Part shown: piece after piece, positions 12,274 to 21,993 of the stretch | How the letters are laid out: each line of letters opens with the position of its first letter | Position numbering within the stretch: position 1 is the first letter of the stretch | NCBI GenBank assembly: GCA_963832165.1 | Contig: CAWHTE010000002.1 | Coordinates: 352,001 to 416,000, forward strand | DNA length: 64,000 nt | Source: an uncultured delta proteobacterium | GTDB taxonomy: Bacteria; Myxococcota_A; UBA9160; SMWR01 | Direction: 5' to 3' | Translations under genes and position numbers: made by a program | The notes under the pieces: model-generated | The model's input: only the letters and a program-made list of their open reading frames with translations | Told to the model about the DNA's origin: nothing | Database searches by the model: none

Positions 12274-13190
12274 CCCGCTCGGCGCCCGCCGCGCGTCCCA
12301 CCGTCGTCGGGCTGGGCCTGTGCGTGGTCGATCACCTCTACGTGGTCGACGAGATCGCGAGCACGCGCGAGCGCTCGCGCTACACGCAGCGCAAGGTGCT
12401 CGCGGGTGGAATGGTGTCGAACGCGCTCGCTCAGGTCGCGCGCCTCGGTTGCCGCGCCGAGCTGATCTCGCTGGTCGGCAACGACGCAGACGGGCGCCTG
12501 GCCCGGCGCAGTCTGCGCGCGATGGGAGTGTCGACGCGCGGACTCCTGCTCTCGGACGCATTCCCGACCACGATCGCGGTGGTGATGATCGGTGCGCGCG
12601 ACGGCGAGCGCCGTTTCGTCACCGCGCATCGCGCGCGCTTCGAGCGGCGCGTGCCCGCGTTCGATCTCACGCCGGTTCGTCCTGGGCGCGTGTTGCTGAT
12701 CGACGGCCATTTCCCCGCGCAGGCGCTGCGCGCCGCGAAGCGCGCGCGCTCGCTCGGCGTTCCGATCGTCGCGGACTTCAGCGATCCGCGCCCCGACTAT
12801 CTCCGCCTGCTTCCCTGGGTGGATCACCCCGTGCTCCCCGAGGCATTCGTGCGGCAGTGGTCGCCGGGCGATCCCGCCGACGCGCTGCGCAGGCTGCGGC
12901 GCGAGTTCGGCGGCTCGCCCGTCGTGACGCTCGGCGCGCGCGGCGGTCTCTACTGGTGCAACGGGAAGGTGAGGCAGTACCGCAGCCCGCGTGTGCGCGT
13001 GCTCGACACGACCGGCGCAGGTGACGTGTTCCACGGCGCGTTCGCAGCGGGCCTCGCCTCCGGACTCGAGCTTCCCGAGATCGTCGCGCGCGCCGCGCGC
13101 GCGGGCGCGCTCGCGTGCACGGCGCTCGGCGCGACCGCGCGCCTGGCCTCGCGGCGCGAGTGGAAAGGCTTGGTTCCCGCGGGTCGTTGA
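12270..13190 (+). CDS. PfkB-family carbohydrate kinase
   Basis: GG.vsNA, VGND.DG, VTLGARG and DTTGAGDVFHGA motifs. Confidence 0.9.
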   Translation: MTRSAPAARPTVVGLGLCVVDHLYVVDEIASTRERSRYTQRKVLAGGMVSNALAQVARLGCRAELISLVGNDADGRLARRSLRAMGVSTRGLLLSDAFPTTIAVVMIGARDGERRFVTAHRARFERRVPAFDLTPVRPGRVLLIDGHFPAQALRAAKRARSLGVPIVADFSDPRPDYLRLLPWVDHPVLPEAFVRQWSPGDPADALRRLRREFGGSPVVTLGARGGLYWCNGKVRQYRSPRVRVLDTTGAGDVFHGAFAAGLASGLELPEIVARAARAGALACTALGATARLASRREWKGLVPAGR

Positions 13191-13451
13191 CCTCGCACAC
13201 TCTCGCAGGCTGCGCCCCGAGTACTGCCGAAGGCGGATCGTGCCGCCTGATCGATCCTGGCGCGCCCCCGCAGGTTCAGCTCGAGCTGATCGCATCGGTG
13301 GACGCGCGCCTGCAGGGCACCGTGCGGATCAAGCCAGACCTCGCTGGAAGTCCGCGATTTCATTGGACCTGGTTTCGGCGTCGAACTCGACACGATTCGC
13401 GGTCCTCGACCGAGCCCGAAACCCCGCGGGCGCACATTTAGTCAGGTAGCC

Positions 13452-13473
13452 GAACTGGATTCAAATCCAGTTC
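13452..13473. repeat. Perfect 10-bp inverted repeat GAACTGGATT-ca-AATCCAGTTC
   Basis: Direct inspection; lies at the distal boundary of the cassette array. Confidence 0.7.
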
Positions 13474-13564
13474 ACGGAAACGATCAGTGCGTTGGTGACT
13501 CCGGCCAGCGCATGTCACCCAGGACGAGCGCCGAGATCGTGACTCCTGTCGGACGACCCGAGCA

Positions 13565-13843
13565 TCACTTGCTGAAGTGTTTGACCAGAAAGAATCGGGC
13601 CAACTGCTCGCCTTCCTCGGTCAACACCACGGACTTCGACTTCGAAACAGGATCTGAGATCCAGCCTCTTTCGAATAGGAGATTCATGAGGTCCCAATCG
13701 AGCGCCTTCCAGACGCGCCCGCCGTGCAGGGTCAGGCCGAGCATGGCGAGCGCGACCTCCGCGAGCTTGTCCGAATCCAGCTCGTCGGGGAGGCGCGCAG
13801 GACGTTCATCATCGTGAGTCATCGTGGTGCTTGCATGTCGCAT
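13565..13843 (-). CDS. DUF6429-family small protein, last gene of the array
   Basis: LALAMLGLTLH...WKALDWDLMNLLFERGWISDPVSKSKSVVLTEEG; start may be 13822. Confidence 0.75.
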   Translation of the reverse strand: MRHASTTMTHDDERPARLPDELDSDKLAEVALAMLGLTLHGGRVWKALDWDLMNLLFERGWISDPVSKSKSVVLTEEGEQLARFFLVKHFSK

Positions 13844-13897
13844 GACGCTGTCACTCAGCCGCCGGCGGAGCCGGTCGGCTCCAGTGGCTGGTTAGAC
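13840..13897 (-). other. attC site 1 (58 bp, 59-be-like), R' degenerate (GTCATGC)
   Basis: Minus strand: GTCTAAC CAGCC ACTGGAGC CGACCGGCTCCGCCGGCG GCTGAGT GACAGC GTCATGC. Confidence 0.8.
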
Positions 13898-14199
13898 GGT
13901 CGTCGGGTTAGGCGCGACAGCAGATACCCCAATAGACGGTGCAATACGAAGACCGGACCCAGCGGAGCGCCGAGGAGCAGCGCCCAAAACAAATAGCCAG
14001 CTCGCGCTCCGGTATCCCAGATCTCACCGAACGGCGGCGCTAGACAGGCACGACGCGCATTGTCATACCCCACGCCAGCGTCCAGGCATGTATCCATGGC
14101 GTTGAGAATGTAGAACCACTGGCATATCCACACGTACAGCGCGAACATAATCAGGCCGAGTGTCACTTGAATGCCCCGGTGCATCTTCGTCATCCGCAT
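13855..14199 (-). CDS. Cassette-encoded hypothetical membrane protein (2 TM, CLDAG...C motif)
   Basis: ATG lies within the upstream core site GTT|ATGC; ORF reads into attC1. Confidence 0.7.
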   Translation of the reverse strand: MRMTKMHRGIQVTLGLIMFALYVWICQWFYILNAMDTCLDAGVGYDNARRACLAPPFGEIWDTGARAGYLFWALLLGAPLGPVFVLHRLLGYLLSRLTRRPSNQPLEPTGSAGG

Positions 14200-14353
14200 A
14201 ACGGATCGCGGTTGAGCTGCGGCCGCCCCGCGTGTCTCCCAGTATCAATCCGGCGGCTGCTGCGCGTCAACCACCGAACCGGCGGCCGCCGGCCGTGCGA
14301 CCCGGTACAGCAACCAAAGCGGGTCGGCCGTCAGCTGCAATCGATTGTTAGGC
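14196..14353 (-). other. attC site 2 (158 bp)
   Basis: R'' GCCTAAC-AATCG-L'' ATTGCAGC ... L' GCTCAAC-CGCGATCC-R' GTTATGC. Confidence 0.9.
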
Positions 14354-14382
14354 AGCGACTCGTTGCCGGCCGAAGCCGAACG

Positions 14383-14601
14383 TTACTGCTTGGCCGGCAA
14401 GCGACTGGAAATGGTCCAGGTAACAGCCGTGCCAAGGAAGCATGCTACGAAATAGAACCCCCACCTTGCAATTGGGCTCTCCGGGACTCCTCGCCCAAAG
14501 CGGATGATCTCGCCCGGAAGCACGAGATCAACGCAGCCGATGACAACCATCGCCGGGAAAAGGAAGCAAAGAGCTGCGAGATAGGTTCGTGCCGAGATCA
14601 T
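14383..14601 (-). CDS. Cassette-encoded small membrane protein (72 aa, 2 TM)
   Basis: Best ORF between attC3 and attC2, hydrophobic, in array orientation. Confidence 0.6.
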   Translation of the reverse strand: MISARTYLAALCFLFPAMVVIGCVDLVLPGEIIRFGRGVPESPIARWGFYFVACFLGTAVTWTISSRLPAKQ

Positions 14602-14636
14602 GGATTCTCGTTCGGGTGCCTCCGCTCTGCGTGGTC

Positions 14637-14794
14637 GCCTAACGGATCGGCGCTCAGCTGCGAGCGCGCTGACCGCATCGTAACACCACCGAAGCCGCCG
14701 CCAGGCTGCAAGAGCCGCTGGCGAGCGAAGCGAGCCTTAGCGGCGGTCCTTCGACATGCTGCTGGCGCTCGGCAGCTGCAGCGCCTTGTTAGCC
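14637..14794 (-). other. attC site 3 (158 bp)
   Basis: R'' GGCTAAC-AAGGC-L'' GCTGCAGC ... L' GCTGAGC-GCCGATCC-R' GTTAGGC. Confidence 0.92.
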
Positions 14795-15249
14795 GGCATG
14801 CCTGCATAGGCGCGCGCGACGAAGCCCGAGAACATCGCCATCACCGTTCCCATGAGAACGAGAAACACCGGGTTTGCAAAATTGGGAAATGGTGGTCCGA
14901 TGACAAACGCGACTAAAGCGGACAGGCTGGATGTTGCGTATGCCGCGCAGCTTAAAGCTAAGAGAGCAACGATTGTCTTAGTAGGTTGCGACGGGACGCC
15001 AACTCGAGATACGCGGAGCCGCGACGCAGCAGCAAACAGGTGGAGGGTAAGCAAGCCCGACCCAGCGAAGGATGCAGCAAGCGAACCCGTGCACCACAGG
15101 TTAACGCGTGGGTCTACGTTGCGTACCGCGAACGCGATGTGGGAGATGAGCAGTCCTGTTAGCAAGAGGACCATCACCCTGCCGCCCTTCGCCGAGCGGC
15201 CCCATCTTTCTAGTCTCGCCAGCCGTGAGTCGGACTCAATCCAAGTCAT
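14737..15249 (-). CDS. Cassette-encoded hypothetical membrane protein (about 4 TM)
   Basis: Hydrophobic ORF from ATG 15249 reading into attC3; cassette ends are 13-bp complementary (GTTAGCCGGCATG). Confidence 0.65.
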   Translation of the reverse strand: MTWIESDSRLARLERWGRSAKGGRVMVLLLTGLLISHIAFAVRNVDPRVNLWCTGSLAASFAGSGLLTLHLFAAASRLRVSRVGVPSQPTKTIVALLALSCAAYATSSLSALVAFVIGPPFPNFANPVFLVLMGTVMAMFSGFVARAYAGMPANKALQLPSASSMSKDRR

Positions 15250-15274
15250 CGCCAATCGCCTTTGTACCCATGCC

Positions 15275-15430
15275 GGCTAACGGATCGCGGTTCAGCTGCG
15301 GCCGCCCCGCGTGCCTACGAGTTTCAATCGGCGGCCGCCGCGCGTCAATCACCGGACCGGCGGCCGCCGGCCATGCGACTCAGCGCGGCAACCAAAGCGG
15401 GCGGCCGGCAGCTGCAACCGTTTGTTAGGC
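15275..15430 (-). other. attC site 4 (156 bp), close homologue of attC2
   Basis: R'' GCCTAAC-AAACG-GTTGCAGC ... GCTGAAC-CGCGATCC-GTTAGCC; aligns along its length with 14196-14353. Confidence 0.92.
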
Positions 15431-15868
15431 CGCGCCTCTGATGAGGCCGACGATTTGAAGAATGGCAATGAACAGAGCCGCGAAGCCAAAACCAATGGAC
15501 ATGGTCGCCTGGGTCGTGGCCATGCTGCCACTCGCGACTTTCTGCCGCCAGAGGACCCTGCAGCCAGGGGGCGGGAACTCGCCGAACCGAAGTGCCATTA
15601 CGCCAGTTCTGAGGAAGGCCATGCCACAAACAATGAGAACGCAGATCCCGGGCGACATAAGGAGAACTAGGCGTCGATGCAGGGACGCCGCGTATTGCTC
15701 AGACACTGCGCGGGCCTCGGGAACGGAGAGGCCACTAAGGAAGGGAGGATCTGGGAAAAAGGCCTCAGCGTAGTATCGGACCGAGATGAGCCAAGCCACG
15801 AACACCAACGCGGTGCCGATGACGACCGCTTGGTAAACCGGCTGGGGTTCAGAGTGCCTTGTGCTCAT
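15425..15868 (-). CDS. Cassette-encoded hypothetical membrane protein (3 TM, GEFPPPG motif)
   Basis: Stop TAA lies inside R'' (GCCTAAC); cassette ends share GTTAGGCCGC. Confidence 0.75.
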   Translation of the reverse strand: MSTRHSEPQPVYQAVVIGTALVFVAWLISVRYYAEAFFPDPPFLSGLSVPEARAVSEQYAASLHRRLVLLMSPGICVLIVCGMAFLRTGVMALRFGEFPPPGCRVLWRQKVASGSMATTQATMSIGFGFAALFIAILQIVGLIRGAA

Positions 15869-15996
15869 TCTGTGTGCGGCCTAACGGATCGGCGCTCAGC
15901 TGTCGGCTCGCGGCAACCTTCCGCAACCCCACCGAGCTGCCTTGCCAGACTCTACCAGATTCCGCTAAGGCGCAGGCCGGTCATCTGCAGCGCCTT

Positions 15997-16245
15997 CCAT
16001 GAGAAGGCCAGCCTCGTCAAGTGGCGAATAACATTATTTCGTCTCTTATCACGACGCGCAGGCTCCCGAGTCGAACCACCACCAGGCTTCCATCCGCACT
16101 CTCGATGACCTCGGTCTCGCGAGGTCGGTGCACACTGAGGTCCTTGGGCGTCGGGTGCTGCAATCTTGTTATCGACCTCTCCTTGCGAAGGGCCCGGCGT
16201 TATAACGCAGTCACCCGGACACGGCGGTCTCGATCCATCACGGCT
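15997..16245 (-). ncRNA. Putative bridge/seek RNA of the IS1111-type element
   Basis: Stem GGGTGaCTGC/GCAGCACCC encloses an internal loop containing TAACAAG (target left + core); downstream ATGGAAG equals the element circle junction; exact RNA ends unknown. Confidence 0.75.
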
Positions 16246-17304
16246 CTACGCAGCCTGCACGGAAGCGACTCGCACGGGCTCGTAGACCTCTCCCGTCGTC
16301 CACAGACGGTGCAAGAGGACGGCGAGCCGTCTCGCCACCGCGACGATCGCGCGCTTGCGGGCGATGCTCCCTCCGCGCTCCCCCATGCGAAGGCCCGCAC
16401 GTCGCAGATCCGTGTCGGGACCAAAGGGCCCGAGGATGTAGTGCGCAGCACTCACCAACAGACGCCGCAACAGTCGATCCCCTGCCTTCGTGATCCGTAG
16501 CTGGGGATTCTGTTCCCCCGAATCTCGTCGCTTCGGACGAAGCCCGACGTACGCTCCTACTGCGCGGCTCGTCGCAAATCGGCGCGGGTCCTCGATCGTG
16601 AGCACGTAGTACAGCGCCGTGATCGGCCCCACGCCCGGCACCTGGCGCAGCAGCTCCGTCTCCGGGTAGCGCTCTCGGCACAGCTGCTCCACCTCCCGGT
16701 CCATTTGCCGTATCGTCGCGGTGAGCTGCTCGATCGTGTCGAGGAGCGTCTCCAGCCCGGGGAACAGATCCATCGGCGTCGTCGCGCGCACCCGCTTTGG
16801 AAATGCCTCCGTCGAGCTCGCCGGAACACGCGTCCCCAGCGCCTTCGCGAAACCCCGCACCTGATTCACGAGCTGAGTCCGAGCCCGTACGAGCCCATCC
16901 CGCGTCTGGATCAGGATCCGGTCTCGCTGCGCCTGCGCCCCGCGGTGCACGATCGGCTTCAACAGCGACGGATCCATCCGCCCCAGGCGCGCCAACAGCT
17001 CCGCATCGACGCCGTCGCTTTTCGAGTCGTTCTCCGCGATCAGCCGCACTCGGCGCGGATTCGCGACGATCGCCTCGTGCCCGTGGCGAACGACACAGCG
17101 ACTAACCCATGGCGAGTGCGTCCCTACCTCGAGAACAACCCGACTTGGTGGGAACGAAGCCAACCGCTCCGTCATCGCCGGTTCCGTCGTGCGCACCCGA
17201 AATGCCTCGATCACTGCGCCCGCCGCGTCGAGCACCCGTCCCTCGGTCCACCGGTCGCCTAGGTCCAGACCGATCGTCAACCCGCTCGTGATACGATCAC
17301 CCAC
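16246..17304 (-). CDS. IS110-family DEDD transposase/bridge recombinase
   Basis: IGLDLG, VVLEVG, KSDGVDA (DEDD), VPGVG, RDSG catalytic Ser and RITKAGD; likely GTG start at 17304 after AGGAGG (ORF open to 17346). Confidence 0.95.
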   Translation of the reverse strand: MGDRITSGLTIGLDLGDRWTEGRVLDAAGAVIEAFRVRTTEPAMTERLASFPPSRVVLEVGTHSPWVSRCVVRHGHEAIVANPRRVRLIAENDSKSDGVDAELLARLGRMDPSLLKPIVHRGAQAQRDRILIQTRDGLVRARTQLVNQVRGFAKALGTRVPASSTEAFPKRVRATTPMDLFPGLETLLDTIEQLTATIRQMDREVEQLCRERYPETELLRQVPGVGPITALYYVLTIEDPRRFATSRAVGAYVGLRPKRRDSGEQNPQLRITKAGDRLLRRLLVSAAHYILGPFGPDTDLRRAGLRMGERGGSIARKRAIVAVARRLAVLLHRLWTTGEVYEPVRVASVQAA

Positions 17305-17403
17305 GCCAGCCTCCTGTTTGGGACCCACTCCGTGGTGAGCCCGCAATCGTTGCAGACCTTCACGGTACTGCGTTCAGGAGGCTGGCCTTCTCATCCCATC
17401 TTG

Positions 17404-17898
17404 TTAGGCCGCCGGCTCGCCGACAAGAAGTTTGCATTCCTCAATGATTGCGGTGTCGATCTCCGCGATCGAGTCTAGATCGTCGTCCTCGACGTCGTCG
17501 TAGTTGTAGAAGAGGCCCACCAAGCGAGCAATGCCGAAGGACTCGCCCAGGTACTCGCCGGGCGGTAGTAGCTCGTCGATCTCGCGAAACACCCGCTCGA
17601 CGATGAAACGTGCGCCCTGCCTAGGTGGGATCTCGCCACCGGCTACTTGAGAGGCATAGTGCCGCTTGAGGACCTCGCCTGCGTGGATTGGAGTGGGAAG
17701 AGGATGACCAAGCTCTCGGAGCGCAGACTCGAACAGGCTTCGGAGAAGGTGCGGATCGGAGCGGGATGTCTCGCCAGCGAGAACAGCGAGCGATTTCGAA
17801 TCAAGACCGCCCTCTAGCCATGCCGCAGCTACGCCTGGCAGCTTTTCAGGCGGCAAAAACCCGAGGACGTGGGCGGCGGTGGATTCGTTCAGGTGCAT
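17404..17898 (-). CDS. Cassette-encoded hypothetical acidic alpha-helical protein
   Basis: 164 aa; stop inside R''; cassette ends share GTTAGGCCGCC. Confidence 0.8.
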   Translation of the reverse strand: MHLNESTAAHVLGFLPPEKLPGVAAAWLEGGLDSKSLAVLAGETSRSDPHLLRSLFESALRELGHPLPTPIHAGEVLKRHYASQVAGGEIPPRQGARFIVERVFREIDELLPPGEYLGESFGIARLVGLFYNYDDVEDDDLDSIAEIDTAIIEECKLLVGEPAA

Positions 17899-17907
17899 TT
17901 TCAGGCG

Positions 17908-18021
17908 GCCTAACGGATGGCCGCTAAGCTGCGGCCGCGCGAAATGCTACCACGACCCGCAAGCGCACAGCTGGCCGAGCTGTTGAAGCCCGCGGCCGTC
18001 AGCTTCAGCGGCTTGTTAGAC
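17908..18021 (-). other. attC site 6 (114 bp)
   Basis: R'' GTCTAAC-AAGCC-L'' GCTGAAGC ... L' GCTTAGC-GGCCATCC-R' GTTAGGC. Confidence 0.92.
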
Positions 18022-18387
18022 GGCCACTCGCGCTGGTCGCCAGAACTCCACGAAGAACGACGTTCGGCCTGACAGTGCAACGTGGTGCTCTACCTCAGGC
18101 AGCACGATGCCCGGAGACGCCGGGGTGAGCCGCTGACATCGATTGAAAGGTGCATGCACATAATAGTCGATAGGGCCGTGAGTAATCTGGATGCGAGCCC
18201 AGATGCCTCGCTTCGTGGTGTGAAGCTTGAGGAGAGCTTCAGGAACTGAACTCTCATCGAAGTCTGGCGTTCGGTGGTAGGGCTCGTAGCCGAGTGGAAT
18301 CTCGCTGCGATCACATTGGACACAGTCGAGATCTGTTCCGATCCGCGATTGGCGGCCCTCGGTAGTGAGTACCCATCGTCGGTCGGA
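18016..18387 (-). pseudogene. 5'-truncated duplicate of the DUF3565/DUF1971 cassette gene
   Basis: 18009-18387 is near-identical to 18886-19264 (offset 877, about five substitutions seen). Confidence 0.9.
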
Positions 18388-18887
18388 TCAGAAGCGCGGC
18401 GACCCTACCTGCGTGCTGATCACGGCGCGGTCCGTCACGCAAAGAAGGCCAAGACAAACGAACGCGATGTCTGCGGAAACCTGGGCGCTCGAGCGAAAAA
18501 ATGAACGAGCGCGCGGTCACAACAAGGCGGCGGTCGCCCTGGCGAACAAACTCGCGCGGATCGTATGGGGGGTGTGGAAACACGACCGCGCCTACTGCAG
18601 TCCGTCTCAGAGCTAGAAACCCCATCGGCTGATTCGAGCGAACGACGATGATGGCGCACCGGTTCGGACCGGCGCAGGACCAGGCCGACAACAAGCATGG
18701 CCTCAGAGGCCGCTGTCCAGCGATTGGCCCCCTGCGCGCGACTTTCCATCATGGCCCGGAGCCGAGTGCTCCACACACGAGGCCGGAGATACGACTGCAG
18801 TCGAACCCAGCGCCAAAATCGTTCGAAAGGAGCTCCGAAGTAAAAGATCAGCGCGAAGAATCAGATTGACGGAGGAGTCCAGATACG
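18383..18887 (+). mobile_element. 5'-truncated remnant of a second IS1111-type (attC-targeting) element: frameshifted transposase C-terminus, 3' non-coding region and right end
   Basis: GRI.KRGDP...RGHNKAAVALANKLARIVWGVW* (stop at 18616); right end TTGACggaggagtccagata|CG abuts the attC stub gcttGTTAGAC. Confidence 0.85.
18617..18885 (+). ncRNA. Putative bridge/seek RNA of the second element
   Basis: Stem GCGCAGG/CCTGCGC (18672-18737) encloses AACAAGC and CAGCG, matching the two strands of the attC target; AGATACG (18787-18793) matches the element right end + core. Confidence 0.7.
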
Positions 18888-18898
18888 GCTTGTTAGAC
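18886..18898 (-). other. attC site 7 stub (R'' GTCTAAC + spacer only)
   Basis: Identical to the R'' end of attC6; the remainder is replaced by the IS remnant. Confidence 0.8.
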
Positions 18899-19366
18899 GG
18901 CCACTCGCGCTGGTCGCCAGAACTCCACGAAGAACGACGCTCGGCCTGACAGTGCAACGTGGTGCTCTACCTCAGGCAGCACGATGCCCGGAGACGCCGG
19001 GGTGAGCCGCTGACATCGATTGAAAGGTGCATGCACATAATAGTCGATAGAGCCGTGAGTAATCTGGATGCGAGCCCAGATGCCTCGCTTCGTGGTGTGA
19101 AGCTTAAGGAGAGCTTCAGGAACTGAACTCTCATCGAAGTCTGGCGTTCGGTGGTAGGGCTCGTAGCCGAGTGGAATCTCGCTGCGATCACATTGGACAC
19201 AGTCGAGATCTGTTCCGATCCGCGATTGGCGGCCCTCGGTAGTGAGTACCCATTGTCGTTCGGAGAAGGGCGGGCCGTGCCGCGTGTGTCGGCGGTGTCC
19301 GCACGCAAGCTCGGCAACCCATTCGGAATCGATGTCTTCGGCAAACGCGACGATCGGTCGATTCAT
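18893..19366 (-). CDS. First cassette: DUF3565 domain fused to a DUF1971 (TehB/YeaR-like cupin) domain
   Basis: EWVAELACGHRRHTRH.PP...LDC..C followed by YHRTPDFDESSVPEALL..HTTKRGIW...PEVEHHV...FFVEFW; cassette ends share GTTAGACGGCCA. Confidence 0.85.
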   Translation of the reverse strand: MNRPIVAFAEDIDSEWVAELACGHRRHTRHGPPFSERQWVLTTEGRQSRIGTDLDCVQCDRSEIPLGYEPYHRTPDFDESSVPEALLKLHTTKRGIWARIQITHGSIDYYVHAPFNRCQRLTPASPGIVLPEVEHHVALSGRASFFVEFWRPARVAV

Positions 19367-19383
19367 TGATTGTGGGAATGGCC

Positions 19384-19545
19384 GTCTAACTTGAATTCGA
19401 CAGGTCTGCGTAACACCCGGCACACAGCAGAGAAGCTGGCGTAACACGGGCGCAGGAGAGATATACCACGCGTGAAGCCGCCGTATCGCCAGCGTTTGCA
19501 AGCGGCAGCGGCGGTAGGTTCCGGCGTTGGGCAGGTCTGCGTAAC
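19384..19545 (-). other. attI-like site: core GTTAGAC preceded by three GTTACGC direct repeats
   Basis: No matching R''/L'' arm upstream; 14-bp repeat at 19401-19414 and 19532-19545; third GTTACGC at 19439-19445. Confidence 0.65.
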
Positions 19546-19636
19546 GCCGCCCGGGCAGGGGCGATCGCGTGTACTGCGCTCGGCGTGTCGCGCCCTCGTC
19601 GCGCCGGGAGTGGGAGGGGCGAACGAAGCCGCGGAA

Positions 19637-19657
19637 CGCGGGTTTCACCCGCCCTAC
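19637..19657 (-). repeat. GTAG-type REP-like hairpin GTAGGGCGGGTGAAACCCGCG
   Basis: GTAG + GC-rich hairpin overlapping the BolA stop codon; related to 31740-31854. Confidence 0.55.
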
Positions 19658-19923
19658 GCGGTCTCGGTGATCAACCGGTCGATCGCGTGAACGGGCGCAT
19701 CGTCGCCCTTCATGAGATGCGCGATCGCGGCATACACGCGCTGCTGCTGCACGACCCGGCCCTGCTGCGCGAACGTCGCCGATACGACGCGAATCTCGAA
19801 GTGTCCGCCGCCGTTCGCGCGCACCTCGACGCGCGCGTCGGGAAACGCCGCCGCGATCGCCCGCTCGAGATCGCGCGCCGTGTCGCCGGACGAGCTCGGT
19901 GAGGAGAGGATCTGGATCGGCAC
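19654..19923 (-). CDS. BolA/IbaG family protein
   Basis: GGGHFEIRVVSATF...QQRVYAAI...VHAI. Confidence 0.9.
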   Translation of the reverse strand: MPIQILSSPSSSGDTARDLERAIAAAFPDARVEVRANGGGHFEIRVVSATFAQQGRVVQQQRVYAAIAHLMKGDDAPVHAIDRLITETA

Positions 19924-19935
19924 TCGCCTCCCGGA

Positions 19936-21993
19936 CTACTGCCCGCCGCGAGCCACGGCCTCGGCGCCCGGTCCGTCGCGGTGGGTCAATGCGACCAGGT
20001 CGGCGAGCACCTCGACCGCCTCGGTGACCTGGGGATCGTTCTCTTCCTCGGGCTCCGGCTTCGCCTTCGCCTTGGCCTTCGAATCGCCGCCCTTCGCCTT
20101 GTCCTTCGCCTTGTCCTTGTCCTTGTTGCCGTTCGAGCCGTTGGCCTTGGCGTTCGAGTCCTCGCGCTCCTTGATGATGTCGGCGAGACGCACGATGCCT
20201 TCGTGGGCCTTCGCCTCCGCGAGCTTGGTGCGCACCTCTTCGAACTCCGAGCTCTTCGCGATGCGCTCCGACGAAGTTCGCACGAGCTCGGCGAGCGCGG
20301 GCCCCGAGACCTGGCTGTCGACGTCGGCGGGACCGATCGCGTTCGCGAAGCTGCCGTAGAGCGCGGGACGGCTCTCCCCCGAGAGCGCGAACGGCTGATG
20401 CCGCTCGCCGAGGTCGTCGGTGGCGAGCAGCGACGGAATCACCACGTCCGCGGCAACGCCGTCGTTCTGCGTCGAGCGCCCGCCCGGGCGGAAGAAGCGC
20501 GCCGTGGTGATCTTGAGCGCGCCGAGGCCCGGCGGAAGCGGAGTCACGGTCTGCACGGTGCCCTTGCCGAAGGTGTGGTCGTCGCCCGTGATCACGGCGC
20601 GGCGGTAGTCCTTGAGTGCGCCCGCGAGGATCTCCGACGCCGACGCGGACACGCGCGAGACGTGTACGACCATCGGCCCGGTGTAGAGAATCCGCTCGTC
20701 GCGGTCGGACAGCACGCTCATCTGTCGGCGCGCGTTCTCCACTCCCACGACTTCGCCCTTGCGGATGAAGAATCCCGAGATCTTGACCGCGTGCTCGAGC
20801 AGCCCGCCACCGTTGCGCGAGAGGTCGAGCAGGAGCCCATCCGCCTTCGCCTCCTTCACCTGCGTGAGGAGGTTCTCGACGTCGTCGGTGCACTGGCGCT
20901 GACCCGGGTCCGAGTCGCCGTAGAAGGAGGGGAGGTCGATGATCGCGAGCTTGAACGGCTTGCCGTTGCGCTCGCGCGTCTCGAAGCGCAGGCTGGCCGC
21001 CTGCTCAGCGAGATCGATCTTGTCGCGCACGATCGCGAGCGGGAAGCGCTCCGTCTCGTCGCCCTGGCGCAGCACGGTCAGGTGGACCTTGGTGCCTTTC
21101 TTGCCGCGGATCAGGCTGACCGCGTCGCGCAGCGGCATGTCCACGATGTTGACCGCCTCGCCGCCCTCTTCCGCGACCGCGATGATCTTGTCGTTGGGCT
21201 CGAGACCGTTCTCGATCCGGTCGGCGGCGCCGCCCGGGATGATCCGCTCGACCACCGAGTAGCCGTCGCGCTCGGACAGCGCGACGCCGATTCCCTCGAG
21301 CGAGAGCGACATCGAGATGCGGAAGTCCTCGACCGCTTCCGGCGACAGGTAGTTCGAGTGCGGGTCGAGGGCGGTCGCGAACGAATCGAGGAAGATCGAG
21401 AAGATCTCCCACTGCGGGATCTCGCGCAGGCGCTTGGTGCGCAGCTCGTAGCGGTGCGCGAGCAGTCGCTTCGCCTCGGCGAGCTTCTCTCCGGCTCCGA
21501 GATAGTTCGACATCTGGAAGTGGACGAGGCGCCGCCAGAGCTCGTTGCGCTCGTCCTCGTTCTTCGGATAGCCGCGCTCGTCCGGGTCGATCCGGATCTC
21601 GACGCTCTCGTCGAGCTTGAAGTTCTCGTCGGCCATGAGCGCCTTCGCGTGGACTTCCGACGCGGTCTGCAGCGCGATCAGTCGCTCGTGGACGCCCATG
21701 ATCTGGCTGCAGTTCCCGGCCTGGAGGTTCTCGAACACGCCCGCGAGCTTCGCGCGCAGCTCGCCGACCTCGTTCTCGAGCATCAAGCTGCGAGAGGTAT
21801 CGAGGCGGTGGAGATAGCTCTCGATGGCGCGCTGCTCGATGTCGGCGCCGAGCGCGCTCTGGGTCACGTGGTGTTTCAGGAACTCGCGCGCGAGCTGACC
21901 GATGCTCGGGCAGTCGAGCTCGGCGGCCGCGGGCGTCGCGACGACCAGAGCAGCGAGCAGGGCCAGGGAACGGCGAATTTGGCGCAGGATCAT
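19936..21993 (-). CDS. prc: Tail-specific (C-terminal processing) protease, S41A
   Basis: LDPHSNY, LEGIG PDZ domain, DLSRNGGGLL, SASASEILAGAL and TFGKGTVQ. Confidence 0.92.
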   Translation of the reverse strand: MILRQIRRSLALLAALVVATPAAAELDCPSIGQLAREFLKHHVTQSALGADIEQRAIESYLHRLDTSRSLMLENEVGELRAKLAGVFENLQAGNCSQIMGVHERLIALQTASEVHAKALMADENFKLDESVEIRIDPDERGYPKNEDERNELWRRLVHFQMSNYLGAGEKLAEAKRLLAHRYELRTKRLREIPQWEIFSIFLDSFATALDPHSNYLSPEAVEDFRISMSLSLEGIGVALSERDGYSVVERIIPGGAADRIENGLEPNDKIIAVAEEGGEAVNIVDMPLRDAVSLIRGKKGTKVHLTVLRQGDETERFPLAIVRDKIDLAEQAASLRFETRERNGKPFKLAIIDLPSFYGDSDPGQRQCTDDVENLLTQVKEAKADGLLLDLSRNGGGLLEHAVKISGFFIRKGEVVGVENARRQMSVLSDRDERILYTGPMVVHVSRVSASASEILAGALKDYRRAVITGDDHTFGKGTVQTVTPLPPGLGALKITTARFFRPGGRSTQNDGVAADVVIPSLLATDDLGERHQPFALSGESRPALYGSFANAIGPADVDSQVSGPALAELVRTSSERIAKSSEFEEVRTKLAEAKAHEGIVRLADIIKEREDSNAKANGSNGNKDKDKAKDKAKGGDSKAKAKAKPEPEEENDPQVTEAVEVLADLVALTHRDGPGAEAVARGGQ

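What the first reader, a model, noticed from the sequence alone, without database searches (positions are those of the whole stretch)
15997..16245. Readable bridge-RNA guides programming an IS110 recombinase to an integron attC site
Seen: on the minus strand the 3' non-coding region can fold GGGTGaCTGC (16216-16207) with GCAGCACCC (16161-16153). This encloses a large internal loop and an inner hairpin. The 3' side of the loop carries TAACAAG (16171-16165), identical to the target R'' end plus core (GCC-TAAC-AAG). Further 3', ATGGAAG (16093-16087) is identical to the element's circle junction (TC-ATGG-AAG), and CCCA is complementary to the left-end TGGG. Both 7-mers have the same NNNN+AAG form. 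Established: IS110/IS1111 elements use a non-coding bridge/seek RNA whose loops base-pair with target and donor. Inference: these are the target- and donor-binding loops of an intact, potentially reprogrammable system with an AAG core. The opposite-strand target guide (ATAACGC versus GCGCTGC) matches only partly.
Basis: partly seen in the sequence, partly recalled or inferred. Interest (0 to 1): 0.85.

Follow-up and report, generated by a model that had tools for sequence, protein, structure and literature searches.

The report
Bridge RNA of an attC-targeting IS1111 element
The non-coding tail of this insertion sequence encodes a guide RNA of the published bridge/seekRNA kind that directs the element into an integron-type attC site, so it is a real but ordinary example from a previously undescribed lineage.

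Summary
All strings sit at the stated coordinates, and TAACAAG is far above chance (5 in the window against 0.29 expected). The element is an IS1111-type IS (body 17399-15996, minus strand) inserted in an attC-like site. Its 3' non-coding region shares a conserved RNA scaffold with 58 genome and 53 metagenome relatives. Stems show compensatory changes (97.3% of cells paired; 0 of 500 shuffles reach this).

Both sides of the target loop covary with the DNA flanking each relative. The 3' side matches the left flank (87 of 133 identities, 0 of 20000 permutations). The 5' side is complementary to the right flank (130 of 153, 0 of 5000).

Three corrections apply:
- The shared core is AG, not AAG.
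A better, unproven candidate is CUCA at 16139-16136.
- This copy's 5' target guide has two mismatches to its own site.

The donor guide ATGGAAG and the right end are invariant, so that pairing fits but cannot be tested by covariation.

The kind is published: seekRNAs of attC-targeting ISKpn4 and ISPst6, and the IS621 bridge RNA. This is a new lineage (35% identity or less to any plasmid-borne homologue). RNA expression and activity are untested.

The parts
15996..17399 (-). Body of the IS1111-type insertion sequence (ATGGGATGAG...CTCATGGA), 1404 bp. It is flanked on both sides by the core AG (17401-17400 and 15995-15994).
   Evidence: Junctions were read. The ends are conserved in relatives. 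The own genome holds a single copy.
16246..17346 (-). Transposase ORF (366 codons from TTG). The likely true start is GTG at 17304, behind AGGAGG (352 aa). It carries a DEDD RuvC-like domain and a Transposase_20 domain with the motif GLRPKRRDSG.
   Evidence: Pfam PF01548 (E 2e-14) and PF02371 (E 1e-19). Translation. IS621 and ISCro4 transposases are the only PDB sequence matches. Relatives start with ATG at the equivalent codon.
15999..16020 (.). Right sub-terminal inverted repeat. Its partner is at 17373-17394 (22 nt, 91% complementary; 17 nt perfect).
   Evidence: the repeat finder.
17373..17394 (.). Left sub-terminal inverted repeat.
   Evidence: the repeat finder.
16070..16230 (-). Approximate extent of the bridge/seekRNA. 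The closing helix P1 pairs 16225-16223 with 16083-16081 and is extended in the MFE fold. The RNA ends are inferred, not mapped.
   Evidence: Alignment A1 and consensus fold, pair counts, MFE fold.
16153..16220 (-). Target-binding stem-loop. P2 5' strand GUCC is 16220-16217. The stem is 16216-16207 with 16161-16153. The inner hairpin is 16194-16174.
   Evidence: Stem pairs are 100% kept in 22 sequences, with compensatory changes (GGGUG/CACCC to GGGCG/CGCCC and others).
16196..16204 (-). 5' target guide UAUAACGCC. It is complementary to the top strand of core-G plus the right flank (15994-15986, GGCGCTGCA): 6 Watson-Crick pairs, 1 G-U pair and 2 A-C mismatches.
   Evidence: The same loop position in relatives scores 8-9 of 9 (L002, L003, L009, L016, L027).
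16165..16171 (-). 3' target guide UAACA plus core AG. It is identical to the top strand of the left flank (17406-17400), so it would pair with the bottom strand.
16134..16139 (-). Candidate 5' donor guide CUCAGU. CUCA is complementary (with one G-U pair) to TGGG at positions 2-5 of the left end. Covariation is not significant.
Evidence: and alignment A1.
16096..16131 (-). Donor-region hairpin: GCAC with GUGC, plus a variable inner stem.
   Evidence: The outer 4 pairs are invariant. All 4 inner pairs show compensatory changes.
16087..16093 (-). 3' donor guide AUGGA plus core AG. It is identical to the last 5 nt of the right end plus the core (16000-15994).
   Evidence: It is invariant in every relative examined.
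16015..16020 (-). TTGACG. This is the putative -35 box of a promoter completed only in the circle junction (17-nt spacer, then GAAGAT across the junction).
   Evidence: TTGAC lies 24 nt from the end in 69 of 79 relatives and 25 nt in 7. The -10 box and promoter function are inferred.
17403..17409 (-). R'' box GCCTAAC of the interrupted attC-like site.
   Evidence: Compared with the intact sites at 14794-14637, 15430-15275 and 18021-17908.
15879..15993 (-). Rest of the interrupted attC-like site, from GCGCTGCAG to R' GTTAGGC (15885-15879).
   Evidence: The intact neighbour folds as a long imperfect hairpin.

Best explanation
Window 17399-15996 (minus strand) is an IS1111-group insertion sequence. 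Its 3' non-coding region encodes a bridge RNA (seekRNA) of about 150 nt.

The RNA has these parts:
- A closing helix.
- A target-binding stem-loop. [quoted passage not shown] Its 5' side (UAUAACGCC) pairs with the top strand just right of the core.
- A donor region. AUGGA+AG pairs with the right end plus core of the circularised element. A short CUCA segment probably pairs with the start of the left end.

Bound to the DEDD/serine transposase, the RNA would bring the circle junction and the attC site together. The element would then recombine at the AG dinucleotide in one orientation, between R'' and L''.

Shown here: the anatomy, structural covariation of the RNA, and covariation of both target guides with insertion sites across relatives.

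Inferred from published IS1111/IS110 work: that the RNA is made, binds the transposase and is required for insertion, the circle intermediate, and the junction promoter.
For: Pfam finds both IS110-family domains. The GL-P----SG motif and the DEDD residues are present. The sub-terminal repeats span 22 nt, 17 of them perfect.

RNA structure. In 22 sequences of distinct lineages, 31 pairs are 97.3% paired against 89.0% shuffled (0 of 500). There are 67 compensatory cells against 20.9 (0 of 500). Slid controls give 28-41% paired. G-U pairs in the stems fit an RNA of the transposase-sense strand.

Target loop, 3' side. The 7 nt before the core match the left flank at 87 of 133 positions in 19 units with distinct guides. 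The permuted mean is 38.8 and the maximum 68 (0 of 20000).

Target loop, 5' side. The best 9-nt complement to the right flank sums to 130 of 153 in 17 units. The permuted mean is 96.9 and the maximum 115 (0 of 5000).

Within the attC-type clade. The guide base Y tracks the target base: T/T 19, T/C 1, C/T 5, C/C 8 (Fisher p = 0.0007). The 5' guide sum is 233 of 304 against a permuted maximum of 227 (0 of 5000). Named compensatory cases are L003 AGUGCC with GGCACT, L005 AGCGGC with GCCGCT, and L016 GGUCGCGGC against L027 AGUCGCGGC with CCGCGACC against CCGCGACT.

Conservation. Guide columns are the variable ones (majority-base fraction 0.43 and 0.59). Stems score 0.89-1.00.

Independent insertions. 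All 29 complete 24-nt left flanks are distinct.

Donor side. ATGGAAG is present in 88 of 88 relatives. The right end CTTCTCATGGAAG is present in 73 of 79.

Literature. seekRNAs of attC-targeting ISKpn4 and ISPst6 co-purify with the transposase, with the top-strand match 5' of the bottom-strand match (PMC11187229, sections read). IS1111 bridge RNAs lie in the right end, with donor nucleotides in a multi-loop (PMC11208160, passages).
Against: - No RNA data exist. No listed sequencing run holding this stretch is RNA.
- Rfam has no matching family (0 hits at E<=1).
- The whole non-coding region does not fold better than shuffles (z = -0.80).
- This copy's 5' guide is weak: 6 of 9 in the best window, against 8 of 9 in L002 and L003. 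It has two A-C mismatches.
- The element is single-copy, although an equally good empty site lies at 14791-14777.
- Exceptions among relatives: the L008 left flank matches 0 of 7, L017 2 of 7 and L036 3 of 7. Several attC-clade right flanks match only 4-5 of 8.
- The donor pairing cannot be tested by covariation, because both partners are invariant. That invariance is partly built in, since loci were anchored on a 16-nt motif with up to 2-3 mismatches.
- The candidate 5' donor guide shows no significant association with the left end (Fisher p = 0.61).
- Permutation tests ignore relatedness of the elements, although the flanks are host DNA.
Confidence: 0.9

Rival explanations
1. The RNA is of the bridge/seekRNA kind, but this particular copy is a decaying, no longer mobile element. 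The guides are readable relics rather than a working system.
For: The own genome holds a single copy. The 5' target guide has two A-C mismatches to its own site. At both positions the close relative L002 has G. An equally good empty attC site 2.6 kb away (14791-14777) is unoccupied.
Against: The ORF is open, with all catalytic motifs. The inverted repeats are perfect over 17 nt. Every invariant scaffold position of the family is kept. The nearest relative is 92% identical in protein, which suggests recent spread. Imperfect 5' guides are common in the attC clade.
Confidence: 0.25
2. The transposase protein alone recognises the target, or DNA-DNA pairing of the non-coding region does. The matching segments act as DNA or are by-products, not as RNA guides.
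For: Sequence covariation alone cannot tell RNA-DNA pairing from DNA-DNA pairing. No RNA evidence was obtained here.
Against: The segments sit in the loops of a structure kept by compensatory changes and G-U pairs that work only in the sense-strand RNA. About 14 different target types each match their own guide pair on one scaffold. Published experiments on IS1111 relatives show the RNA is bound and required (PMC11187229, sections read).
Confidence: 0.04
3. The 7-mer matches are chance, or leftovers of attC sequence carried into the element.
For: Each match is only 7 nt. ATGGAAG is not enriched in the window.
Against: TAACAAG is found 5 times against 0.29 expected. The same loop position holds other targets' sequences in relatives. 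The permutation tests gave 0 of 20000 and 0 of 5000.
Confidence: 0.01

Closest known systems
seekRNAs of the attC-targeting IS1111 elements ISKpn4 and ISPst6, and the predicted one of ISPa25 (Siddiquee et al. 2024, PMC11187229)
   Same: The non-coding RNA lies downstream of the transposase. The guide complementary to the top strand lies 5' of the guide complementary to the bottom strand. The target is one end of an attC site. The ISKpn4 and ISPst6 non-coding regions printed in that paper's Supplementary Table 1 contain GATAACAAT, the same GAUAACAA as here.
   Different: No plasmid-borne homologue is more than 35% identical to this transposase (4243 records matched, 737 of them Klebsiella). I did not compare it with ISKpn4 directly. 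The RNA scaffold motifs of this family (GGGUGACUGCG, GAGUGCGGAUGGAAGC) are not in the printed ISKpn4 or ISPst6 regions. The base after GAUAACAA is G here and U there.
IS621 bridge RNA (Durrant et al. 2024, PMC11208160; structure paper PMC11208158, seen only as a search listing)
   Same: There are two guide-bearing regions, one for the target and one for the donor circle junction. Each has one segment per DNA strand, and the segments overlap a shared core dinucleotide. The donor side is more conserved than the target side. The transposase is of the DEDD plus serine type.
   Different: The RNA is 3' of the gene, not in the left end. The order of the two guides in the loop is reversed. The donor nucleotides sit in a multi-branch junction closed by P1 and P2, not in a simple internal loop. 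The sub-terminal repeats are long (17-22 nt). The core is AG in the element's orientation, against CT in IS621.
ISEc11 and ISXne4, a natural re-direction by replacement of the guide segments (PMC11187229, section read)
   Same: Close relatives keep the stems and differ in the loop segments, and their targets differ accordingly. The same is seen here for L016 against L027, for L006, L008 and L009, and for L003 against L007.
   Different: This family offers many more steps: about 14 guide types in 25 distinct loops. None has been tested experimentally.

Membership tests
IS110 family, IS1111 group | An N-terminal DEDD (RuvC-like) domain and a C-terminal Transposase_20 domain | tested here: met
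   PF01548 (54.1 bits, cut-off 29) and PF02371 (71.1 bits, cut-off 21.3). KSDGVDA aligns with KTDTVDA of IS621.
IS110 family, IS1111 group | The GL-P----S(T)G motif in the C-terminal domain (as given in PMC11187229, section read) | tested here: met
   GLRPKRRDSG is in the translation. It aligns with the ESG region of IS621.
IS110 family, IS1111 group | Sub-terminal inverted repeats of 7-17 bp with short terminal extensions | tested here: met
   Arms at 15999-16020 and 17373-17394, with 17 nt perfect. Extensions are ATGGG on the left and GGA on the right.
IS110 family, IS1111 group | The long non-coding region lies downstream of the transposase gene | tested here: met
   249 nt lie between the stop codon (16246) and the end (15997). 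Only about 95 nt lie upstream of the start.
Bridge RNA / seekRNA | A conserved secondary structure with guide-bearing loops | tested here: met
   31 pairs, 11 with compensatory changes, 0 of 500 shuffles.
Bridge RNA / seekRNA | Target-loop segments covary with both strands of the insertion site | tested here: met
   0 of 20000 and 0 of 5000; Fisher p = 0.0007 and 0 of 5000.
Bridge RNA / seekRNA | Donor segments complementary to the element's ends across the circle junction | tested here: inconclusive
   AUGGA+AG equals the right end plus core in all relatives, but neither side varies. The 5' candidate CYCA is 4 nt and shows no significant covariation (p = 0.61). One compensatory case exists (L108).
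Bridge RNA / seekRNA | The RNA is expressed, binds the transposase and is required for transposition | not testable with these tools
   No RNA run holds the stretch. Laid contigs were fragmentary.
IS1111-attC group (ISPst6, ISKpn4, ISPa21; name from papers cited in PMC11187229, which I could not read) | Insertion at a fixed position and orientation in attC sites | tested here: met
   The window plus attC-type relatives insert after [C/T]AACA-AG, before GCGCTGCAG-like sequence. An R' box was found downstream in 11 of 21 testable loci.
IS1111-attC group (ISPst6, ISKpn4, ISPa21; name from papers cited in PMC11187229, which I could not read) | A transposase closely related to ISPst6 and ISKpn4. 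The source-data row for ISPst6 lists 86-89% identity to ISKpn4 and ISPa21 and 76-79% to the next six IS. | tested here: inconclusive
   No direct comparison was made. The best identity to any of 72,556 plasmid records is 34.9%, which argues against membership.
Integron attC site | R'' RYYYAAC and R' GTTRRRY in inverse orientation. The folded single strand forms an imperfect hairpin with unpaired bases. | tested here: met
   GCCTAAC and GTTAGGC. The fold of the intact neighbour has dG -48.6 and z = -2.39, pairing R' with R'' and leaving bulges.
Integron attC site | The site belongs to an integron with an intI integrase | tested here: not met
   No TIGR02249 match above the cut-off in the own genome (best 72.6 bits against 265). 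The assembly is 89% complete. The cluster of about 5 sites therefore looks like an attC cluster without an integrase.

The most novel reading that the evidence does not exclude
The R''-AAG position of attC sites is a shared address used by several deeply diverged bridge-RNA IS lineages. In this one genome a second IS110-family element is only 25-28% identical in protein and has a simpler target loop. It carries the same UAACAAG target guide and the same AUGGAAG donor guide, and it occupies two further attC-like sites. Insertion regenerates the left half of the address, so elements can stack: relative L105 sits directly against the left end of such a second element. If guide modules or whole RNAs are exchanged between IS lineages, attC clusters would act as landing pads that spread these elements across phyla.
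Probability: 0.3. Interest if true: 0.5.

Novelty: new member of a known kind. Interest (0 to 1): 0.35.

Why it matters
This adds no new mechanism. Its value is as a clean natural data set for a mechanism discovered in 2024. One invariant scaffold carries about 14 different guide pairs, each matched to its own insertion sites, with a well-defined AG core and short (6-7 nt) donor guides. That is useful for learning the pairing rules and mismatch tolerance of IS1111-type bridge RNAs, which are less studied than IS621. It also shows that attC-like sites outside clinical integrons, in soil and sediment bacteria, are targeted by lineages other than the described IS1111-attC group. These insertions split R'' from the rest of the site, so they would probably disable it as a recombination substrate.

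Tried and rejected
- Rfam scan of 13000-20000 at E<=1 gave no family.
- Sequencing-run search listed no RNA holder.
- Laying contigs of four runs on 15700-17700 gave only short fragments. There was no joint across the element and no circle junction, so it says nothing either way.
- My first attC finder, which required L''/L' complementarity, returned nothing and was dropped. A motif scan replaced it.
- The Tetu and Holmes 2008 paper on the IS1111-attC group is not held. The exact insertion point of that group is therefore not compared from its source.
- The ISKpn4, ISPst6 and ISPa25 protein and non-coding sequences appear in the supplements of PMC11187229. I did not enter them in any tool, so identity to them and RNA homology are unmeasured.
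- The protein tree is the unfinished 'quick' version. About 10 rows have aberrant composition, probably from wrong-frame extraction in GC-rich DNA. I use it only for three local statements.
- The association of the CYCA base with left-end position 4 is not significant.
- An integron integrase was sought and not found.

Full report
**What is there.** A 366-codon ORF (17346-16246) lies on the minus strand. It carries both IS110-family domains, PF01548 and PF02371. Its only sequence matches among solved structures are the IS621 and ISCro4 transposases. The translation shows the DEDD positions and the motif GLRPKRRDSG. That is the GL-P----SG signature given for IS1111 transposases in PMC11187229 (section read). 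The likely true start is GTG at 17304, behind AGGAGG. Relatives have ATG at that codon.

The element is bounded by GGCGGCCTAACAAG|ATGGGATGAG on the left. On the right the boundary is CTTCTCATGG|AAGGCGCTGCAG. It has sub-terminal inverted repeats at 17373-17394 and 15999-16020 (22 nt, 17 of them perfect). It occurs once in its 5.5-Mb, 11-contig genome.

Every string is at the stated coordinates. The MFE fold reproduces the stem, the large loop and the inner hairpin. The region as a whole does not fold better than shuffles (z = -0.80). TAACAAG occurs 5 times in the window against 0.29 expected. ATGGAAG is not enriched (4 against 2.77).

**Relatives.** A scan of one genome per species returned 58 loci encoding relatives at 86% down to 39% identity. 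Multi-copy elements occur in three acidobacterial MAGs. Downstream of the gene they share a scaffold: CCGNGUYC-GGGUGACUGCG, a variable segment, an inner hairpin, a variable segment ending in AG, AUN-GCAGCRCCC, GGACCYCA, a GCACC hairpin, and GAGUGCGRAUGGAAGC.

I aligned 22 sequences of distinct lineages (A1). The consensus fold has 31 pairs in 7 helices. On that structure 97.3% of cells are paired against 89.0% in shuffles (0 of 500 reach it). There are 67 cells with changes on both sides against 20.9 (0 of 500). Sliding the partners by 1-3 columns leaves 28-41% paired.

The structure was predicted from the same alignment, which favours it somewhat. G-U pairs in several stems fit an RNA of the sense strand. 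The two variable segments are the least conserved columns (majority-base fraction 0.59 and 0.43). Stems score 0.89-1.00, and the AG scores 0.98.

**Guide and insertion-site covariation.** I located the ends of each element by their conserved termini. I then compared loop segments with flanks. A target loop was found in 53 of 59 sources, giving 25 distinct loops. One of these (L053) was a false call on a degenerate copy and was dropped.

*3' side against the left flank.* In 19 units with a left flank, the 7 nt before the core are identical to the flank at 87 of 133 positions. The permuted mean is 38.8 and the maximum 68 (0 of 20000).

*5' side against the right flank.* In 17 units with a right flank, the best 9-nt window complementary to the flank sums to 130 of 153. 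The permuted mean is 96.9 and the maximum 115 (0 of 5000).

*Exceptions.* The L008 left flank matches 0 of 7, L017 2 of 7 and L036 3 of 7. The permutations ignore relatedness among elements, but the flanks are host DNA and the target types differ.

*Compensatory cases.* These include L003 (AGUGCC with GGCACT), L005 (AGCGGC with GCCGCT), and the pair L016 and L027. In that pair, GGUCGCGGC/CACAGAG tracks CCGCGACC/TTCAGAG and AGUCGCGGC/UACUGAG tracks CCGCGACT/TTACTGAG.

*Re-targeting among close relatives.* In the unfinished quick tree, L006, L008 and L009 form a supported clade (99) with three different guide pairs. L007, which has a non-attC target, is nested (100) among attC-type elements.

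**The attC-type clade.** A metagenome scan with the degenerate 3' half of the target loop gave 53 more loci. Because the pattern fixes the 3' guide, only its Y position and the 5' guide are informative.

- The Y position tracks the target base: T/T 19, T/C 1, C/T 5, C/C 8 (Fisher p = 0.0007).
- The 5' guide sum over 38 de-duplicated units is 233 of 304. The permuted mean is 208.3 and the maximum 227 (0 of 5000).
- All 29 complete 24-nt left flanks are different, so these are independent insertions.
- An R' box complementary to R'' lies 35-175 nt downstream in 11 of 21 testable loci. The same pattern occurs in 4 of 21 upstream controls, which may themselves be neighbouring attC sites.

1. *The core is AG, not AAG.* On the target side the preceding base varies (AAG, TAG, GAG, CAG, TGG) and is copied in the guide. 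On the donor side it is always A. The element is therefore ATGGG...CATGGA plus AG.
2. *CCCA at 16148-16145 is not a donor guide.* It lies in a linker whose columns are not conserved. The conserved segment next to helix P2 is CYCA (16139-16136 here). It can pair with TGRG at positions 2-5 of the left end. In many relatives a C or U two bases on could pair with the core G. The association with the left-end variant is not significant (p = 0.61). One relative (L108) has a compensatory change, ATAGG with CCUA.
3. *The donor guide ATGGAAG cannot be tested by covariation.* It is present in 88 of 88 relatives, and the right end CTTCTCATGGAAG in 73 of 79. Neither varies. The invariance is partly built in by my 16-nt anchor, which allowed 2-3 mismatches.
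4. *This copy's 5' guide is weaker than its relatives'.* UAUAACGCC (16204-16196) pairs with GGCGCTGCA (15994-15986) through 6 Watson-Crick pairs, one G-U pair and two A-C mismatches. L002 has G at both mismatched positions.

**Context.** The target is attC-like, with R'' GCCTAAC (17409-17403) and R' GTTAGGC (15885-15879). Similar sites follow small ORFs at 18021-17908, 15430-15275 and 14794-14637, and there is a partial one near 14351. The single strand of an intact neighbour folds as a long imperfect hairpin that pairs R' with R'' (dG -48.6, z = -2.39). No integron integrase reaches the family cut-off in the 89%-complete assembly. This is therefore best called an attC cluster without a detected integrase.

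TTGAC lies 24 nt from the right end in 69 of 79 relatives. In a circle junction it would stand 17 nt before GAAGAT. This matches the junction promoter cited for ISEc11 in PMC11187229. That reading is an inference.

**Comparison with what is known.**

- PMC11187229 (sections read) shows that IS1111 elements make a seekRNA from the downstream non-coding region. These include the attC-targeting ISKpn4 and ISPst6. The RNA co-purifies with the transposase and is essential and programmable. The top-strand match lies 5' of the bottom-strand match, as here.
- The paper's Supplementary Table 1 prints ISKpn4 and ISPst6 non-coding regions containing GATAACAAT.
- PMC11208160 (passages) predicts bridge RNAs in 93% of IS1111 elements. 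They lie in the right end, often with donor nucleotides in a multi-loop, as in the P1/P2 junction here.
- The present transposase is at most 34.9% identical to anything in 72,556 plasmid records.
- Two literature searches found no paper on this lineage.

It is therefore a new member of a known kind.

**Verdict.** The finding is real and its core interpretation is right, with the corrections above. Activity of this copy and existence of the RNA remain untested.

Noticed in passing
Own genome, L116 (C7:814700-816600) and L117 (C5:195300-197200): The same genome holds a second, different IS110-family element in two copies. They are identical except for one base in a T run, which breaks the frame in the C7 copy. 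The C5 copy has an open 366-codon ORF. Its protein is 25-28% identical to the window's transposase. It is also inserted at CCTAACAAG|...|AAGGCGCT in attC-like sites. Its 3' region contains AAUAACAAG and GAUGGAAGC in a simpler loop without an inner hairpin.
   Followed up: partly
L105 (metagenome contig), right flank: The window element's closest relative (92% protein identity) is followed not by attC sequence but by GCATCATAAGTAGG. This resembles the left end of the second element type (GGATCATAAGTAGG). It suggests that one IS inserted directly against another at the regenerated TAACA-AG address.
   Followed up: no
window 17375-17386 and 17305-17316: A perfect 12-nt inverted repeat pairs the inner part of the left end (GCCAGCCTCCTG on the minus strand) with the ribosome-binding site and the bases up to the start codon (CAGGAGGCTGGC). 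A run of 10-12 nt is kept in 9 of the 24 distinct left ends examined, including the window's own. L048 has a different but still complementary pair. It would hide the ribosome-binding site in transcripts that include the left end.
   Followed up: partly
window 18009-18308 and 18886-19185: A 300-nt direct repeat (99% identical, 877 nt apart) covers the 3' part of a cassette ORF plus GTCTAACAAGCCG. The upstream copy is followed by unrelated sequence instead of the rest of an attC site. This suggests a rearrangement at or next to the same attC position.
   Followed up: no
L016-L034, L047, L049, L050 (two Terriglobia MAGs): Relatives are multi-copy: 12 and 8 loci share one target loop. All are inserted in a repeated host sequence, GTT[TA]C[AT]GAG|CCGCGAC[CT]GT, that is not attC-like. 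It is probably a REP-like repeat.
   Followed up: no
L009, junctions: One relative has the guide CGUAUGG and flanks GTATGG|...CATGGA|GGCCGG. The core is GG at both junctions, while its donor guide still reads AUGGAAG. This is a natural example of a non-AG core on the target side.
   Followed up: no
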